Below, in pieces: positions 1 through 6,400 of a stretch of 6,400 nt of DNA; the stretch's first letter is position 1; each line of letters starts with the position of its first letter. Source of the stretch: Amoebophrya sp. A120 (lineage: Eukaryota; Protista; Dinoflagellata); contig CAJINV010000111.1 in assembly GCA_905178155.1 (NCBI GenBank), positions 1-6,400 on the forward strand, in the 5' to 3' direction. The position numbers and the translations under genes were made by a program. Under the pieces are notes generated by a model, which saw only the letters and a program-made list of their open reading frames with translations, searched no databases and was not told the DNA's origin.

Positions 1-143
1 TGCTGGGAGCGTCAGTGCTGCTGGGAGCGTCAGTGCTGCTGGGAGCGTCAGTGGTGCTGGGAGCGTCAGTGCTGCTGGGAGCGTCAGTGCTGCTAGGAGC
101 GTCAGTGCTGCTGGGAGCGTCAGTGCTGGGAGCGTCAGTGCTG
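1..143. repeat. 18-bp coding tandem repeat GTGCTGCTGGGAGCGTCA, about 8 copies, the last shortened to 15 bp; encodes STDAPS on the minus strand
   Basis: Directly visible; truncated by the window edge. Confidence 0.95.
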
Positions 144-710
144 GAGGTGTCTGGAGCCTCAGTTGCAGGCTCATCAGGATCATGGTCAGGGTCGTTCTCC
201 GCGTTCACGATGTCGTCGTAGTGATCGTCGTTTCGGTCCATCCCGTTCTCACCAAAGTAATGCTTGTACTCTGCCTCCGACACCTCTCCGTCGTCATTCC
301 TGTCAACGAGATCGAAGCGCTCGTCTCCCGCCTCTCCGGGGCCGTCTCCGCTGTGTCCAAAAATCCCACTCTCAATATGCTCCCCCCAACTAAAACTGTT
401 CGGAGTAAAAACCTCGTCGGGTTGGAGTTTTCCGTCGTGGTTGTCGTCCAACTTGTCGAAGGGTACTGACCCCACCCCCTGTGGGTCTTTGCCGAGAGCA
501 AAGACACCCTGGCCGGCGGCGATTCCGGGCGCATTTTCCGGCAAAACGTTTTCATCCACATCTCCGCCGGTTTCCTGCTCGTACCCGCTGCGCACCGTGT
601 CCTGCCAGAAGTCAAAACCCTTGTCCGGCGGCGGGTCCGCGAACGCCGGAAACATGTCGTCCTTCTTGTCGATCCCGTCCGGTCCGAAAACTTCGTTTAG
701 TTCTTGCTTG
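1..710 (-). CDS. Last visible exon: KQELNEVFGPDG...FDKLDDNHDGKLQPDEV...FDLVDRNDDGEVSEAEY...(STDAPS)n, running off the window
   Basis: Open frame read by hand. It is absent from the ORF track, probably because it has no stop in the window. Contains two canonical EF-hand loops. Confidence 0.9.
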
Positions 711-3700
711 GTAACTATCACGGGCAAATGTGTCTGGGTCTGGAAAAATAAATGCAAGATCTGCGATGCATCTTGCGGACGACATGCATGGTCTGAAATG
801 CACACAGAAGCATCACAGATTTTGCGACACCTTCCTCATGCCTATGCCACATGACAAATGCGCCTTTCGCCAACTAAAAAGTTGGTAGCTTTAGGCGATC
901 ACGCAATACAGATTTTCTTGCGATCGAGATTTGTTCGCATGACAAGCTGCCACCTTCCAGACCCAGGCATATTTGCAATGCATAGTAACGAGCCCGTCGT
1001 GGTTTTCATCCACTAGGTTGAACCGCTTCTGGATCACTTCTGGATCCGTTTGGGCGTTTCCGAAAATCGTCGGCGGCGGGCCACCGGCGGGCGCGGACCG
1101 GGTCGCCTCCTCGATGGAGATGGCAGGCACGGCTTCCTTGCCATCTCCCGCGATGTCATTCTTGTCTATGGCGTGCATCTCGTCAAACGTGACATGGCCG
1201 TCCGAGACCTTGTGATCGTGTCCTTGCACAACGAGACCCCATGTAGCCTTCTGATGCTCTGTCAGATCCGGAGGCGTATGCACTGCAAAAGTGTCTGGGT
1301 CTGGAAGTTTGGAACTTGTGATGCTACCCTTGGACTCTGCATAAAATCTGTATAGCATGAACAGCAAAGGAGGCGCGATCTGTGCCACACGGAGAGGGCA
1401 TTTCTCATGCGTCATGAGCATCAGAAAGCCCTCGCAGAATTTCTGATGCTAGGGCACGCATCACAGACCTCATGGGTCATGCAAAATCTGCATGACAAAC
1501 TCTTGCATTCTTCCAGACCCAGACATTTCTACATTTGATAAGGCGACATCTCGCCGTCGTCTTGATTAGACGGAAGCGGCATCCTATGCAAGAAAAAAAG
1601 GAGCGCCAGTACACTCATACATTTTTATGACATTTCGGCAAGAACTTCTCAAACTTGCTCTGCATGAGCATGATCTGCAACGCAGGGACGATATGAATAT
1701 GGCAAGAAAACGTCGTCGCACATCGGGAAACATGGGGGGGGGAGCAGGCTCCGCCCAAGCATTTCCGGCATGAGATAGAGTTTGTCCTCTGTCCTGCTTG
1801 TGCTTGCCTTGTAGCGCAACATCACAATGTGTACCTGCAACACGACTTTTTTCTTTGCATACATGTCCCCCGGGTTGTCGTTGTCCCCGCCTGACCCAAA
1901 CGGGTATGGAACTGTCAGGATTGAAATTAACAGAGTTGAAATAGTTTGTGATGCATAAAATCTATACCAGTTGGGCCCACAGTTTCCAATCGACGCACGA
2001 CAAATTTTCCTGGTCTCTGAAGCAAGTCTGTCATGCTGTTGAGGGCAAGATGGCTGCTCCCTGTCATGCTAGTCAGCCGCCCAATTCTTGACCCTTACCA
2101 GCACTAGAATCTGCCTCCCGCCTTGCGCCTTCTGCAATAGAGTCACGTCAGTCTTTGTGTCGCAGTTTATGCATGACAAATCATTTCAAATTTGTCGATT
2201 TCGAACCTGACACATCCATAACGGGGGGTCGAGTTTTATGACAACATCGCCGCGCCGGTTCACATCATAGTTCTCGTTATCGACCTGCACCTGGCCTGAT
2301 GGGTTGTCATTCGGTTCAGCGAGGTCGCCGGTCCGGTCCTCCAGAGTATCCAGGTGAATTTCCCCCGGTTTGTGATCCGACCCCTCCAGCTTGACGAGCT
2401 TGTCCCAGAGGGCGGGACTCCCCTTGAACTCGTCCTTTTGTAACACGCCGTCGGCTATCAAATGCAAATATGGGGTCTGGGTCTGGAAGAATGCATTTTT
2501 TTGTCATGCAACTTTTCGAAGACACAAGAAATAATGGTCTCTGATGCACGTAAAGCATTACAGGTTTTGCGCTGGCCTCTTGATGCCTATTCCGCATGAG
2601 TAATTTCCTATTTGCGTAGCAACAAGCGGACAGCTTTTCCTTTTGGTGCTCATGCAATACAAATTTTTGCCTATTCATATTCTATAATCCGTAGGACAAG
2701 TTCGAATTCTGCCAGAACCTTCAGACATTTTTGCAATGCATATCGCCGTAGTAGGGTCCGTTTGCGTAGTAGGATCCCTTAGCCTTTCCTTCCATGACCG
2801 CTTCAGCCTGGTCCACGCGATTCAGATCATCCGGAATGTTATACATATGCAAAATCAATCGTTCGCTAGTACTAGTGATTACATCTGCATCACAAATATT
2901 CTCACAAATAAGGTAATGCTGTTCAACAACTGTTTGACTTTGTCTTTGATGCAATATTGGAATTTGTACGACGAGTTCGATAGTTTTACAATGGATAAGT
3001 ACATGTCGACTTCATTGTCATCCCCAGCAATTTCGTCGTTCATGTGCATCTCCAGTTTCGCCTGCAGATCTTCTGCGGGGTTCTCGCCTCCGCGCAATCC
3101 CCCCTGTTGCGTACTCGTCTCGGTTCCGCTTTCGAAGTCGTCGGGATACTGAATGGAGTCCAGCTCGGCTTTGGTAATGATAGGGTGTTTATCAACTGTA
3201 AAAGTGTCTGGGTTTGGAAGATTGCCGGCTTTGTCATGCACATTTTGCATGACTCCTCAAGTCTGTGACGCATGCCCTAGCATCACATATTTTTAGAGGG
3301 CTTCCTGATGCCTATTCCGCATGACAAATGCTCTCTCCGTACTGAAAAATTTGGACTCTCTTTGCTGCTCATGCAATACAGATTTTTTTGGAATCCAAAT
3401 TCAGCATCACAAGTTGCATTCTTCCAGACCCAGACATTTTTACATTTGATAGTGTTCCTTCGTGTGATAGTCCGCGTTGTACTTTTCCGCCGGGTATGGA
3501 AGTGTCAGGATCGAAATCAACAAAATCGAAATAATTTGCGATGCGTAAAATGTAGGGCACTGAAGGCCTGTGTTGGGGAGTAGGCAAATGAGACCGATTG
3601 TGAGCCTGTTTAGGGGTATAAAATGTGCTGCCAGAGTAGCATGACAGGAGGAGTCTTCTTTGCCCAAACTGCATGACAGACTGGATTTGGGTGCGCCCGA

Positions 3701-6205
3701 AATTTGTCATGCGCCACTGGGAAACTGAGGCTCCAACAGACATCGATTTTGTGCATCGCAAATTTTTCGATTTTGTCAATTTCGATTCTGACACTTCCAT
3801 ACCGGGTGTATCCTGTGTAAAAACTTCTACGGGGCCTACGCCCTCGAACCAAGATTGGAATTACTGAACAACCCACGTAAATCCAGAAGCTTTGGAAGGT
3901 GAGTCACGCATGACAGCACGAAATTTATTCGCAGTGTTCTCGCTGCAGTGTAGTGTACTTACTAGAGTAGCTGCGAGTACATCATCTTCCGCATTGCAGA
4001 GCCATCTTCTAATCCTGGTGTTTACGGTATCTTCACAAATCCCGAAACACAACGGGTGGAATTATGGCATTTCATCATCAGATGCGCTGCATGTCAACAA
4101 ACCTTTATTCTGTAGAAGTAGGGGCAAATAACGCAAATCTCCACTATACAATTGATTCTGGGCCGCGGCGGGTGTAGCCGTTTTCTACACAGGATAGGGT
4201 TCCAGGTTTCATCATGCCAGGGTACGTCGCCATGCGCTGCGTATGAGAGTGCAAAAACTCGTCTCTGTCCACTTCCTTTCTTGTCATGCAAAACGCCAAA
4301 TCCACACCCAACCGGGCCTTTTGACCACGTGCGCATGACAAGATTCCGACGTGGCCAAAAGCGCCCTTCCGTCTGGACCACGTCGATTTGTGTTCATGCA
4401 AAAGCTCCATCCTTCAACGAGCTGCTCTCGTTGGTAGAAATGGCCTTCAAACCAGGAGCAGAGCGAGGAGTAGTTGTCCGCTATCATACTGCTGTGTTTG
4501 GATCCAAATCTTGTCCGTGGATCTCCTGTATCAACTGCAAATAACTCGTCTGGGTGTGGAACTTATTGTGCCGCTTGTCGAGCCCTTGTTGCATTCCTGT
4601 AAATTACTCTGTACTGCATGTTGACTGAACAACAAGACCGCAGCCACTTTAGCTTCACCTGTCTTGTTTCATCAGAAAGAAAAACGCATAAAAAGCGCTA
4701 GCGCTACTGACGGCGCGACGAGAGCCTTCTAAAACTTCATCTCACGCTTGGCTGCGCTGTCTTCAACTCCTGCTGAAACTGTTTACTGATCCACAATGCT
4801 GCAGCACAACAAGTTTCCAGACCTCCCAGACGTAGCTGCAATGGATATCCTGGTCTATTTTCAAATCGTCATTGATCATGTTTTATCGAGTGCACAAGTA
4901 TTGTACTAGTCGTCCCACTTACTGTCTTCACGCATGACAGATCCCCCTTCTACAAAGCAAAGCCATCAAGTTAAAAATGCAGATTTCATTTTGCAACCCT
5001 GAGAGAAAATTTCCAATTGCAATTCCGACTTCTACTTCATATACGATAGCGATACTTTTGCAATGCATATGTCCTGCAAGGCAGCCTGCTGCAGCGGATT
5101 CATTTTCGCTGGGTCGATCGGCGGATCGTGGTCCGGGTCGAAGGCACCGGGAGGAAATTGCTCCGCCACCTTGTCTATAAACTGCAAATATGACTGGGTC
5201 TGGAACCTTGTGAGGACGCTGGGCTGCGTATTATGAGGGGGGCAAATCAAGTGCTGCCTCAGCGCGACAAGTTTCTGAGCTTCTGGGTGTTCTTGCCTGT
5301 TCTGCATGACAAACTGCGTTTCTGCATGACAGAAAAATGGGCTGGGGCTCTTGGGTAATGTGCATGACAGATTTAAGAATCACACCAGACAAGCATGACG
5401 AACATGCATTCTTCCAGACCCAGACATATTTGCAATGGATATTGTCCATATACTGGTCTTTCTGCATCTCATGAATCGCCTCTTTCGTGATGCCATGTGG
5501 AAACTTCTCTTCAAATTCTTGTTGAGTGACCTGCCACTTGCTGTCGTTTGCATTTTCACCGTTGTCTCCATCGTCGAACCACGCCACAAGATCCTCGTGC
5601 GCACCATCTTCATCACCCGTGAGGCGGAGCGCAAGCTCGGATGGCTCAGTCGTGTCACTGAAGCCCCCTGCTGTGAGCTCGTCAAAGTCTATTCTGCCAT
5701 CAGAAGCCTCGATTTGTTGCATTATGTGATTCATTACGTCCGGATTGTCAAAAGGAAAATCGCCATCGTCTTTCTGTTTCATTTCTTGGCTGACTTTTTT
5801 GGTTTTCCGCGTGCTCAGACGACGGTTTTGCTTTCTTGCTGTGCTGCGTGCTGTAGCCATTTTCCGCCGCCCCTGTTTGTAGTTCTTCTGGCTTTCTCCA
5901 TTTTCGAGCGCGCTACTCGGACCAGAATTTGCAGCTGGACGAAGATATACTTTATCATCATCCACACGACCACCCGAAGTAGAAGAGGAGGTGTCTACTT
6001 TACGGAACTCGTCACTTGCTGCAGCTGATGAACTACTACTTCCGGCACCAGCAGCAGAAGGAGCGCTCTTACTGCTCGACCCAAGAAACAGAAAGCGTTG
6101 GAAGAAATCTCCCAGCCGATCTTTCCAGGATGAGGAAGAAGCAGCTCCTTTTGTTGTTTCATCTCGATCTCGACGACGCTTCTTGTTTTTCCGCTTCCAC
6201 CGACG
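1..6205 (-). CDS. Multi-exon gene, partial at the 3' end: acidic EF-hand calcium-binding-like protein with a C-terminal (STDAPS)n repeat. Inferred exons: 5442-6205, 5070-5170, 4848-4878, 4489-4523, 4197-4236, 3802-3803, 3452-3489, 2998-3184, 2743-2839, 2221-2450, 1862-1899, 1541-1579, 985-1271, 1-710 (boundaries can slide within the 5-bp DRs)
   Basis: Manual removal of the 13 TAT..ATA elements (plus one DR copy for 12 of them) gives 2599 nt (866 codons + 1 nt) with no stop. EF-hand loops: DENHDGLVTKQE (across a junction), DDNHDGKLQPDE, DRNDDGEVSEAE. The start is uncertain because of the TAG at 6206-6208. Confidence 0.85.
716..984. mobile_element. Element 1: introner/MITE-like intron, TIR family A, 269 bp
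   Basis: Ends TATCACGGGCAAATGTGTCTGGGTCTGGAA and TTCCAGACCCAGGCATATTTGCAATGCATA. Perfect DR GTAAC at 711-715 and 985-989. Splits an EF-hand loop. Confidence 0.92.
985..1271 (-). CDS. Exon: PDLTEHQK...RFNLVDENHDGLVT
   Basis: Core of ORF 891..1421, bounded by elements 1 and 2. Joins in frame on both sides. Confidence 0.88.
1277..1540. mobile_element. Element 2: family A, 264 bp, interior inverted relative to elements 1, 5 and 7
   Basis: TIRs with the GTCTGGGTCTGGAA core. Perfect DR AGGCG at 1272-1276 and 1541-1545. Confidence 0.92.
1541..1579 (-). CDS. Short exon: PLPSNQDDGEMSP
   Basis: Lies between elements 2 and 3; in frame with both neighbours. Confidence 0.75.
1585..1861. mobile_element. 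Element 3: family C (TATGCAAGAAAAAA...GTACAC TIR), 277 bp
   Basis: Imperfect TIR of about 30 bp. DR CATCC (1580-1584) / CATGT (1862-1866). Also readable as an in-frame GT-AG intron at 1584-1862. Confidence 0.8.
1862..1899 (-). CDS. Short exon: FGSGGDNDNPGDM
   Basis: Lies between elements 3 and 4; in frame. Confidence 0.75.
1905..2220. mobile_element. Element 4: family B (TATGGAA.TGTCAGGAT.GAAAT TIR), 316 bp
   Basis: Imperfect TIR of about 40 bp. Perfect DR ACGGG at 1900-1904 and 2221-2225. Confidence 0.92.
2221..2450 (-). CDS. Exon: DGVLQKDEF...VIKLDPP
   Basis: Core of ORF 2186..2467, between elements 4 and 5. Confidence 0.85.
2456..2742. mobile_element. Element 5: family A, 287 bp
   Basis: Left TIR intact, right TIR decayed. 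DR TCGGC (2451-2455) / TCGCC (2743-2747). Confidence 0.88.
2743..2839 (-). CDS. Exon: IPDDLNRVDQAE...GPYYG
   Basis: Part of ORF 2721..2954. The upstream boundary is uncertain (2839-2865). Confidence 0.75.
2840..2997. mobile_element. Element 6: short, degenerate, family-A-like, 158 bp
   Basis: TATACATATGCAAAATCAATCG pairs with the reverse complement of the right end, TATCCATTGTAAAACTATCG. No standard flanking DR. The frame requires removal of a length equal to 2 mod 3. Confidence 0.65.
2998..3184 (-). CDS. Exon: PIITKAELDSI...DDNEVDMY
   Basis: Core of ORF 2879..3250, between elements 6 and 7. Confidence 0.82.
3190..3451. mobile_element. Element 7: family A, 262 bp
   Basis: Family A TIRs. 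Perfect DR GTGTT at 3185-3189 and 3452-3456. Confidence 0.92.
3452..3489 (-). CDS. Short exon: AEKYNADYHTKEH
   Basis: Lies between elements 7 and 8; in frame. Confidence 0.75.
3495..3801. mobile_element. Element 8: family B, 307 bp, interior inverted relative to element 4
   Basis: Near-perfect TIR of about 55 bp. Perfect DR CCGGG at 3490-3494 and 3802-3806. Confidence 0.93.
3809..4196. mobile_element. Element 9: family D (TATCCTGTGTA TIR), 388 bp
   Basis: TATCCTGTGTAAAAAC pairs with GTTTTCTACACAGGATA. DR GGGTG (3804-3808) / GGGTT (4197-4201). Confidence 0.87.
4197..4236 (-). CDS. Short exon: AHGDVPWHDETWNP
   Basis: Lies between elements 9 and 10; in frame. Confidence 0.75.
4242..4488. mobile_element. 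Element 10: diverged TIR (TATGA.AG...CTC..CTCTG), 247 bp
   Basis: Imperfect TIR. DR CTGCG (4237-4241) / CTGCT (4489-4493). Removal restores the frame. Confidence 0.82.
4489..4523 (-). CDS. Short exon: EIHGQDLDPNTA
   Basis: Lies between elements 10 and 11; in frame. Confidence 0.75.
4529..4847. mobile_element. Element 11: diverged family A, 319 bp
   Basis: TATCAACTGCA...GTCTGGGTGTGGAA and TTCCAGACCTCCCAGAC...TGCAATGGATA. Perfect DR TCCTG at 4524-4528 and 4848-4852. Confidence 0.9.
4848..4878 (-). CDS. Short exon: MINDDLKIDQ
   Basis: Lies between elements 11 and 12; in frame. Confidence 0.75.
4884..5069. mobile_element. Element 12: short, family-A-like ends, 186 bp
   Basis: TATCGAGTGCACAAGTAT pairs with ATACTTTTGCAATGCATA. 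DR TGTTT (4879-4883) / TGTCC (5070-5074). Confidence 0.8.
5070..5170 (-). CDS. Exon: KVAEQFPPGAFDPDH...QQAALQD
   Basis: Part of ORF 5032..5307, between elements 12 and 13. Confidence 0.82.
5176..5441. mobile_element. Element 13: family A, 266 bp
   Basis: Family A TIRs. Perfect DR TTGTC at 5171-5175 and 5442-5446. Confidence 0.92.
5442..6205 (-). CDS. Large exon: RRWKRKNKK...DGRIDFDEL...QKDQYMD
   Basis: ORF 5231..5965 (GTG start in the track) stays open upstream to the TAG at 6206-6208. The true start is unknown. Confidence 0.75.
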
Positions 6206-6400
6206 CTAAAAATACCCGGACTTGCTGAGCTTCTCATTCAGTATCTGCAGCTGTTTTTCCGCTTCTTTTTCCTGCTTGTTCCCCAGTTCCAAGACCGCGG
6301 AGCCACCTTCGGTGGAGAGATCTTCCGTAGTTGCCGTCGGGGTCGTTGCCGTCGGGGTCGTTGCCGTCGGGGTCGTTGCCGTCGGGGTCGTTGCCGTCGG
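6206..6400 (-). CDS. Coding-like segment (PTATT)n-EDLSTEGG...LSKSGYF*, in the same frame as the downstream exon
   Basis: Open frame from the window edge to TAG 6208-6206. It is either the 3' end of an upstream gene or part of the same gene. Confidence 0.6.
   Translation of the reverse strand, partial: PTATTPTATTPTATTPTATTPTATTEDLSTEGGSAVLELGNKQEKEAEKQLQILNEKLSKSGYF
6330..6400. repeat. 15-bp tandem repeat GTTGCCGTCGGGGTC, about 4.7 copies; encodes PTATT on the minus strand
   Basis: Directly visible; truncated by the window edge. Confidence 0.95.

What the first reader, a model, noticed from the sequence alone, without database searches (positions are those of the whole stretch)
711..5446. 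One gene split by 13 TAT..ATA inverted-repeat elements that must be removed precisely, mostly without canonical splice sites
Seen: 13 elements with TIRs, 12 with a different 5-bp flanking DR. Removing element plus one DR restores a single frame and rebuilds the 12-residue EF-hand loop DENHDGLVTKQE across element 1. For elements 1, 2, 4, 7, 8, 9, 10 and 13, no position within the DR gives GT-AG, GC-AG or GA-AG. Copies are quite diverged from each other while the exons carry no stops, which suggests a live gene. Known: introns with inverted and direct repeats (introner elements) are described in the syndinean dinoflagellate Amoebophrya, and to my knowledge their removal mechanism is unresolved. 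Inference: a TIR/DR-guided removal system that erases the target-site duplication, acting on RNA or, like ciliate IESs with pointers, on DNA.
Basis: partly seen in the sequence, partly recalled or inferred. Interest (0 to 1): 0.92.

Follow-up and report, generated by a model that had tools for sequence, protein, structure and literature searches.

The report
Transposon introns cut by fixed ruler
This gene of the plankton parasite Amoebophrya A120 is interrupted by 13 copies of an already published kind of small transposon-derived intron, and one copy whose removal breaks the reading frame suggests that the still unknown splicing machinery likely counts five letters from the element's paired ends instead of reading the flanking repeats.

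Summary
The 13 TAT..ATA elements are real. The window is Amoebophrya sp. A120 (two annotated A120 proteins match at 100%), so these are the introner elements of Farhat et al. 2021: a known class whose removal mechanism is still open. One probably-RNA contig joins exons across elements 1-6, each removed as element+5 nt; published models do the same for 6-11 and 13; DNA-like contigs keep the elements. No element offers GT-AG at that length. Two first-reader claims fail. Only 7 of 13 direct repeats are perfect, and there is no single frame: element 6, whose repeat is broken, is still cut as element+5, giving a frameshift and stop, and element 12, the only one without a predicted terminal stem, was seen only retained. 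Both point to an RNA-level, hairpin-defined cut at a fixed distance from the inverted repeats, blind to repeat sequence, frame and element orientation. In 270 related elements from metagenome contigs, 205 have an exact 5-bp duplication, one inside RPB1. Spliceosome versus another enzyme remains untested. Known system; useful natural mutants.

The parts
716..984 (-). Element 1 (269 nt), TIR family shared with 2, 5, 7, 13; exact 5-bp repeat; splits an EF-hand loop
   Evidence: removed as +5 in X4 record 17; paralogue P0001 continuous
1277..1540 (-). Element 2 (264 nt), same family as 1/5/7 but in the opposite orientation; exact repeat
   Evidence: removed in X4 record 17
1585..1861 (-). Element 3 (277 nt), repeat 3/5; a nearby in-frame GT-AG pair (3 nt shorter) does not fit the RNA contig length
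   Evidence: joint length of elements 2-4
1905..2220 (-). Element 4 (316 nt), family shared with element 8, opposite orientation; exact repeat
2456..2742 (-). Element 5 (287 nt), repeat 4/5; RNA contig keeps the upstream copy, which excludes the GC-AG option
2840..2997 (-). Element 6 (158 nt), repeat broken (2/5); removed as 163 nt, giving frameshift and stop; cut lies 0-1 nt before TAT
   Evidence: X4 record 17; P0002 ends here; DNA contig X1 record 5 matches the window without differences
3190..3451 (-). Element 7 (262 nt), exact repeat, high-copy family
   Evidence: removed at +5 in P0002
3495..3801 (-). Element 8 (307 nt), exact repeat
3802..3808 (-). 7-nt spacer shared by the repeats of elements 8 and 9; leaves a 2-nt exon
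   Evidence: sequence; P0002 reproduced with this join
3809..4196 (-). Element 9 (388 nt), repeat 4/5; upstream copy kept in P0002
4242..4488 (-). Element 10 (247 nt), repeat 4/5
4529..4847 (-). Element 11 (319 nt), exact repeat
   Evidence: X3 record 14 leaves the window at its edge
4884..5069 (-). Element 12 (186 nt), repeat 3/5, only element with no predicted terminal stem; seen only retained
   Evidence: pairing probability 0.0 vs 0.60-0.94; X3 record 14, X4 record 20; P0003 reads into it and stops
5176..5441 (-). Element 13 (266 nt), exact repeat
   Evidence: removed at +5 in P0003
1..5860 (-). Host gene: acidic multi-EF-hand protein with a Ser/Thr/Asp/Ala/Pro tandem-repeat tail running off the window; exons about 5860-5442, 5170-5070, 4878-4848, 4523-4489, 4236-4197, 3803-3802, 3489-3452, 3184-2998, 2834-2743, 2450-2221, 1899-1862, 1579-1541, 1271-985, 710-1. 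Annotated as two short models (GSA120T00026255, 185 aa; GSA120T00026254, 113 aa); no model found for the 3' part

Best explanation
These are the MITE-like introner elements of Amoebophrya sp. A120: each sits between 5-bp target-site repeats, stays in the DNA and is likely removed from the pre-mRNA by a machine that likely recognises the stem predicted to form between the TAT..ATA ends and cuts at a fixed distance from it, taking the element plus 5 nt. Shown: identity of the genome, 5-bp duplication, element+5 removal at 12 of 13 sites (one RNA-like contig, two published models), no GT-AG, both orientations removed, the upstream repeat copy kept. Inferred: the 5' cut lies one base before TAT (N|TAT.. 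read as N-U-A, which keeps U+2 and A+3 of a spliceosomal donor) and the 3' cut four bases after ATA; because this length equals element plus duplication, a new insertion in either orientation would be erased without help from the target sequence. I commit to a modified U2/U5/U6 spliceosome in which the stem replaces U1- and AG-based site choice (about 0.55 for this last step). Decayed copies break the gene: element 6 is still cut at +5 after its upstream repeat apparently lost 2 nt (frameshift), and element 12 is retained after losing its stem.
For: Genome: P0002 and P0003 are 100% identical A120 models. Class: Farhat 2021 describes A120 IR motifs as TAT + 7 nt + AAA with 3-5 nt repeats; 15 of 26 ends match that exactly, A at position 13 in 24 of 26. 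RNA level: X4 record 17 joins 3161-2998, 2834-2743, 2450-2220, 1271-985, 710-150 without differences; 1411 nt expected for +5 at elements 1-6, 1411 observed; X1 contigs span elements 3, 5, 6, 9-12 whole, at depth 34-41 inside unique elements against 22-31 in exons, where X3 and X4 have zero depth in the bins inside elements 3 and 9. X3 record 14 holds part of element 12 but leaves at the edge of element 11, and its bin depth fits a 40-nt exon further on (0.6 observed, 0.602 computed): a partly processed molecule (inferred). Fixed ruler: element 6. Stem: element 12. Orientation: 2 against 1/5/7 and 4 against 8; 89 against 101 in related loci. A 2-nt exon between elements 8 and 9 argues for intron-side definition. 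Related loci: 205 of 270 exact 5-bp repeats, 2 at 4 bp, 0 at 6 bp; the +5 frame class keeps long frames in 92 of 189 against 40-56 for the other classes; GT-AG possible in 7 of 227 sense, 10 of 227 antisense; an element in RPB1 leaves Pfam PF04998 positions 1-24 and 26 onwards on its two sides. All nine motifs listed as predominant for A120 in Table S4 begin with N-T; U2, U4, U5, U6 and nearly all spliceosomal proteins are reported present, U1 snRNA not found.
Against: The ruler and stem arguments each rest on one element. The RNA evidence is one contig of depth 7.6 from half of one run labelled 'RNA? (a guess)', plus gene models that may derive from the same data; contigs drop minor forms, so an in-frame form of element 6 or a spliced element 12 may exist unseen. 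Junctions 7-11 and 13 rest on annotation, not on reads seen here. Retention of element 12 could be ordinary pre-mRNA or a transcript end. Data fix the 5' cut only to 0-1 nt before TAT; the N-T donors of Table S4 may be an aligner preference inside slidable repeats. Repeat mismatches cluster at positions 1-2 (window 9 of 10; related loci 31 of 54, p 0.004-0.18 by threshold, absent with one strand call), a hint that identity at positions 3-5 matters somewhat. No branch point, lariat or enzyme was tested; orientation independence sits awkwardly with a branch point.
Confidence: 0.6

Rival explanations
1. Same RNA-level, stem-defined cut, but by a non-spliceosomal endonuclease-ligase (Euglena-like nonconventional splicing, excised RNA circular or linear).
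For: No dinucleotide preference at either cut in related loci; both orientations work, so no strand-specific branch or pyrimidine tract is evident; U1 not found; Euglena introns with terminal pairing use a fixed offset code and are proposed to use other proteins.
Against: The inferred 5' end keeps U+2 and A+3; A120 retains an almost complete spliceosome and 35% GT-AG introns; Fritillaria is reported to splice MITE-derived non-canonical introns with the spliceosome.
Confidence: 0.25
2. Repeat-guided removal: the two 5-bp copies are aligned (template switching or homology-based joining); or the joins are reverse-transcriptase template-switch artefacts at hairpins.
For: Exact repeats in 7 of 13 and 205 of 270; mismatches rarer at positions 3-5; strong hairpins flanked by short repeats are the classic setting for RT jumps (own knowledge).
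Against: Element 6 is joined at +5 with a 2/5 repeat; exact repeats are expected from recent transposition alone; an RT artefact cannot explain why +5 restores frames in genomic DNA, including RPB1.
Confidence: 0.08
3. Programmed DNA excision (ciliate IES-like) makes element-free templates.
For: TA-bearing inverted ends and erased duplication resemble IESs; X3/X4 are RNA only by guess; contigs would hide rare excised alleles and 363 joints were not displayed.
Against: DNA-like contigs and metagenome contigs carry the elements, with no depth drop; partly processed record; 66,565 A120 introns were called from RNA-seq against the genome.
Confidence: 0.03
4. The gene is alive: in-frame minor or stage-specific forms at elements 6 and 12 make the roughly 750-residue protein, and the forms seen here are by-products.
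For: Exons are otherwise free of stops; removing 161 nt at element 6 would give 750 open codons from the first ATG to the window edge; EF-hands intact. This concerns the host gene and is compatible with the main mechanism only if the ruler is leaky.
Against: The only forms seen are the frameshifted and retained ones; no full-length or 3' model found in three searches; a further in-frame TAG at 6206-6208.
Confidence: 0.25

Closest known systems
Amoebophrya sp. A120 introner elements / non-canonical introns (Farhat et al. 2021, PMC7789003)
   Same: Same genome; TAT-N7-AAA inverted ends, 3-5 nt direct repeats (5 bp in their Fig. S19 legend), about 240-nt length, non-GT-AG ends, RNA-seq support, tens of thousands of copies, mechanism open; Gozashti 2025 (PMC12130899) notes tens of such introns in single A120 genes.
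   Different: No difference in kind. Added here: a fixed element+5 length, 5' cut 0-1 nt before TAT, independence of orientation and of repeat match, and two failure cases. The passages read do not state these; Roy et al. 2023 could not be read.
Euglena nonconventional introns (Nomura et al. 2025, PMC12501133)
   Same: MITE-like inverted ends, terminal pairing at a fixed offset from the cuts, slidable direct repeats, unknown machinery.
   Different: Different motif (N3CDG..CHGN5-6 with a purine at exon start) and offsets; circular excised RNA reported there, untested here; unrelated lineage.
Fritillaria borealis non-canonical introns (via review PMC11282704)
   Same: MITE-derived, TIR and TSD, removed by an adapted spliceosome.
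   Different: Dominant AG-AC/AG-AT ends there; here no dinucleotide rule at the 3' end.
Micromonas and Aureococcus introners (via PMC11282704, PMC7789003)
   Same: Non-autonomous DNA transposons whose removal erases the target duplication.
   Different: They supply or co-opt canonical GT/GC and AG sites and so depend on target and orientation; these do not.
Ciliate IESs (recalled, not from a call)
   Same: Short TA-bounded inserts in coding DNA, precisely erased.
   Different: Removed from DNA in a somatic nucleus; here the DNA keeps them.

Membership tests
A120 introner elements (Farhat 2021) | Located in the A120 genome | tested here: met
   P0002, P0003 100% identical, named A120
A120 introner elements (Farhat 2021) | 8-20 nt inverted repeat starting TAT, about 7 nt, then AAA | tested here: met
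   26 of 26 ends TAT (partly by the scan's design), 15 of 26 exact TAT-N7-AAA
A120 introner elements (Farhat 2021) | 3-5 nt direct repeat at the boundaries | tested here: met
   12 of 13 with at least 3 of 5 matches; element 6 fails
A120 introner elements (Farhat 2021) | Repeated in the genome | tested here: met
   Two families inside the window; summed contig depth up to 611,560 on element 7 against about 30 on exons (not a copy number)
A120 introner elements (Farhat 2021) | Absent from transcripts, non-GT-AG ends | tested here: met
   Elements 1-6 in X4 record 17; 7-11 and 13 by annotation only; element 12 not met; 0 of 13 GT-AG
Spliceosomal (U2-type) intron | GT/GC..AG ends | tested here: not met
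   the one GC-AG option (element 5) is excluded by the RNA contig
Spliceosomal (U2-type) intron | Branch point and lariat; dependence on snRNPs | not testable with these tools
   needs lariat sequencing or inhibition
MITE (non-autonomous TIR transposon) | TIRs, fixed-length target duplication, no coding capacity, either orientation | tested here: met
   5 bp in 205 of 270; both orientations; 158-388 nt
MITE (non-autonomous TIR transposon) | Cognate autonomous transposase | not testable with these tools
   no genome held; Farhat found none in A120
Ciliate-type IES | Excised from DNA of the expressed genome | tested here: not met
   DNA-like contigs retain elements without depth loss; rare excision not excluded
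Euglena nonconventional intron | N3CDG..CHGN5-6|R signature | tested here: not met
   ends are TAT..ATA against signature; compared by eye
Euglena nonconventional intron | Circular excised RNA | not testable with these tools
   no such data

The most novel reading that the evidence does not exclude
A120 has a splicing route with no sequence rule at either cut: a non-spliceosomal (or U1- and branch-independent) ruler that binds the TAT..ATA transposon-end stem and removes exactly element plus duplication, making any insertion in any orientation silent, even in RPB1, while genes die only when an element's ends or duplication decay.
Probability: 0.25. Interest if true: 0.85.

Novelty: already known. 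Interest (0 to 1): 0.36.

Why it matters
How A120 removes some 30,000 transposon-derived introns without GT-AG ends or a detectable U1 is an open question stated in the 2021 genome paper. This locus does not open a new system, but it holds two natural mutants that separate the candidate rules (broken repeat still cut at +5; lost stem not cut), and it gives a simple genome-wide test with existing RNA-seq: the cut positions at elements with imperfect repeats. It also warns that A120 gene models are fragmented where old elements decay.

Tried and rejected
Whole-genome analysis: no genome held. Uniform removal lengths element+0 to +7 all leave 11-33 stops. Read evidence is limited to one lay of 4 of the 11 listed runs, so junctions 7-13 and a replicate of element 6 were not seen in reads. 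Run X9 (raw RNA reads, same species label) has no reads on the exons, only 100 on element copies: uninformative. No RNA holder on record was listed. Viral contigs: 0 matches. No annotated model of the 3' half in three homologue searches (weak evidence). Direction of change in repeat mismatches did not fix the cut position: position 1 fits an intronic downstream copy (9 against 1), positions 2-5 are mixed. Stop-codon recoding, known in Amoebophrya ex Karlodinium, was considered for the stop after element 6 and rejected by eye: the shifted frame is stop-rich and loses the EF-hands. Assembly error at element 6 rejected: X1 record 5 matches the window there, though it may be the source sample. Earlier findings: none in three look-ups. 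Roy et al. 2023 not held. The host of the metagenome loci was not identified; 85 of 93 exon pieces were scanned and 13 had Pfam hits.

Full report
Observation. A strict scan for TAT..ATA with an exact flanking 5-mer finds 7 elements, against a mean of 0.31 in 100 shuffles. A looser scan gives six more, picked by eye, for 13 elements of 158-388 nt between 716 and 5441. The host gene is on the minus strand. The repeat is exact at elements 1, 2, 4, 7, 8, 11, 13, has 4 of 5 matches at 5, 9, 10, 3 of 5 at 3 and 12, and 2 of 5 at element 6. At element+5 nt no sliding position gives GT-AG in any of the 13; GC-AG is possible at 5, GA-AG at 11, AT-AC at 12. Removing element+5 everywhere does not give one frame: 32 stops follow element 6, and the frame opens only if that element loses 158, 161 or 164 nt.

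Identity. Single exons were searched. The exon before element 6 is 100% identical to a 113-residue A120 model (P0002, GSA120T00026254), the first exon to a 185-residue A120 model (P0003, GSA120T00026255), and the last exon finds only an A120 paralogue at 51% (P0001). The window is therefore Amoebophrya sp. A120 (Syndiniales). Farhat et al. 2021 (PMC7789003; abstract, sections 11, 12, 16, passages, and supplement part 3 plus passages read) describe in this genome 29,850 introner elements with inverted repeats starting TAT, seven looser bases and AAA, 3-5 nt direct repeats, RNA-seq support, no U1 snRNA found, and an open mechanism. Fifteen of the 26 ends match TAT-N7-AAA exactly. The protein is an acidic multi-EF-hand protein (PF13202 above cut-off in the last exon).

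RNA or DNA. Four of 11 listed runs were laid. X1 contigs span elements 3, 5, 6 and 9-12 whole without differences, with depth 34-41 inside unique elements and 22-31 in exons. X4 (RNA by guess, half read) has one contig joining 3161-2998, 2834-2743, 2450-2220, 76 unplaced letters, 1271-985 and 710-150; the 1411 letters equal the length expected for element+5 at elements 1-6. X3 pieces end at the same edges (710, 1271, 2450, 4848). X3 record 14 contains part of element 12 yet leaves at the edge of element 11, and the depth of one bin fits a 40-nt exon on the same record (inferred). P0002 is reproduced exactly by +5 removal of elements 11 to 6, and P0003 by +5 removal of 13 with read-through into 12. 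So 12 of 13 elements have evidence of +5 removal, six from a contig and seven from annotation (element 6 from both); the annotation may rest on the same reads. Contigs hide rare forms, so rare DNA excision is not excluded, only unsupported.

Two natural mutants. Element 6: its upstream repeat looks like the downstream one less two bases (inferred). Both the contig and the published model remove 163 nt, which ends the frame three codons later. The machinery thus follows neither repeat homology nor frame. The contig carries the upstream letters without mismatch, which places the 5' cut 0-1 nt before TAT; elements 5 and 9 also keep the upstream copy, and element 5 thereby does not use its GC-AG option. 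Element 12: the only element whose ends are not predicted to pair (0 of 20 pairs, z -0.2, ensemble 0.0 against 0.60-0.94); it is retained in X3 record 14, X4 record 20 and P0003, and no removal was seen. Each argument rests on one element. Family members lie in both orientations (2 against 1, 5, 7; 4 against 8) and are removed alike, and a 2-nt exon separates elements 8 and 9, so the signal is likely the symmetric ends. The gene is transcribed and spliced, but no full-length product was seen; it may be a recent pseudogene or rely on unseen minor forms.

Related loci. They share element families at 68-82% identity; the host was not identified. A detector blind to the repeat (it recovers 10 of 13 window elements; 1 hit in shuffled loci) found 270 elements in 111 loci: exact repeat of 5 bp in 205, of 4 bp in 2, of 6 bp in 0. 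The +5 frame class keeps at least 150 open bases on both sides in 92 of 189 oriented elements, the other two classes in 40-56. With codon-based strand calls (234 of 239 pairs agree within loci), GT-AG is possible in 7 of 227 on the sense and 10 of 227 on the antisense strand, and orientation is 89 against 101. One element sits in RPB1, with Pfam PF04998 positions 1-24 before and 26 onward after it, and no GT-AG at +5: removal must work in an essential gene. Mismatches lean to repeat positions 1-2 (12, 19, 7, 7, 9 in 45 elements; p 0.004-0.18 over seven thresholds; not seen with the ORF-based strand call), a weak hint against full indifference to the repeat.

Mechanism. Insertion of a TIR transposon makes a 5-bp duplication; a cut fixed to the terminal stem that removes element+5 erases any insertion. 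With the 5' cut one base before TAT the intron starts N-U-A, keeping U+2 and A+3 of a spliceosomal donor; all nine motifs listed as predominant for A120 in Table S4 start N-T, though an aligner may favour that position inside slidable repeats. With most of the spliceosome present and a precedent in Fritillaria (review passages), a modified spliceosome is my best guess (about 0.55); a Euglena-like non-spliceosomal route (PMC12501133, passages) is the main rival. Neither was tested.

Novelty. The system and this genome are published; Gozashti 2025 (PMC12130899, passages) notes tens of such introns per A120 gene; PMC12005148 and PMC11453091 (passages) repeat the description. Five searches (listings only for the other papers) showed no paper resolving the mechanism or stating the fixed geometry, but Roy et al. 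2023 was not available and figures S19-S25 of Farhat were seen as legends only; either may hold it. Verdict: already known; modest added value as natural mutants for an open question.

Noticed in passing
window 6206-6208 (minus strand): A single in-frame TAG separates a Pro-Thr-Ala-Thr-Thr repeat frame (6400-6209) from 115 open codons before the first ATG at 5860; either the end of a co-oriented neighbour or a third lesion in a longer gene. X3 contigs cover 5790-6129.
   Followed up: no
P0002, P0003: Both models have two accessions on two contigs, so the locus may be duplicated or filed twice; the paralogue P0001 lies four to five accession numbers away on the 2.4-Mb contig.
   Followed up: no
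L040:1464-1725: An element of the window's main family interrupts a highly conserved stretch of RPB1 in a metagenome contig; a good target for testing removal efficiency.
   Followed up: partly
loci L002-L079: One metagenome assembly holds many contigs with the same TAT..ATA families at 68-82% identity; an unidentified relative of A120 with up to six elements in 5 kb.
   Followed up: partly
window elements 1, 2, 5, 7, 13 interiors: A short GCAT(G/C)A-type motif recurs many times inside the elements in both directions; possible transposase or splicing-factor site.
   Followed up: no
window 3399-3451, run X9: About 70-80 raw RNA reads carry an element end joined to one foreign flank: a retained copy of this family at another locus.
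   Followed up: no
window 1-146 and 6327-6400: Coding tandem repeats of 18 and 15 nt (mucin-like Ser/Thr/Pro tails) at both window ends.
   Followed up: no
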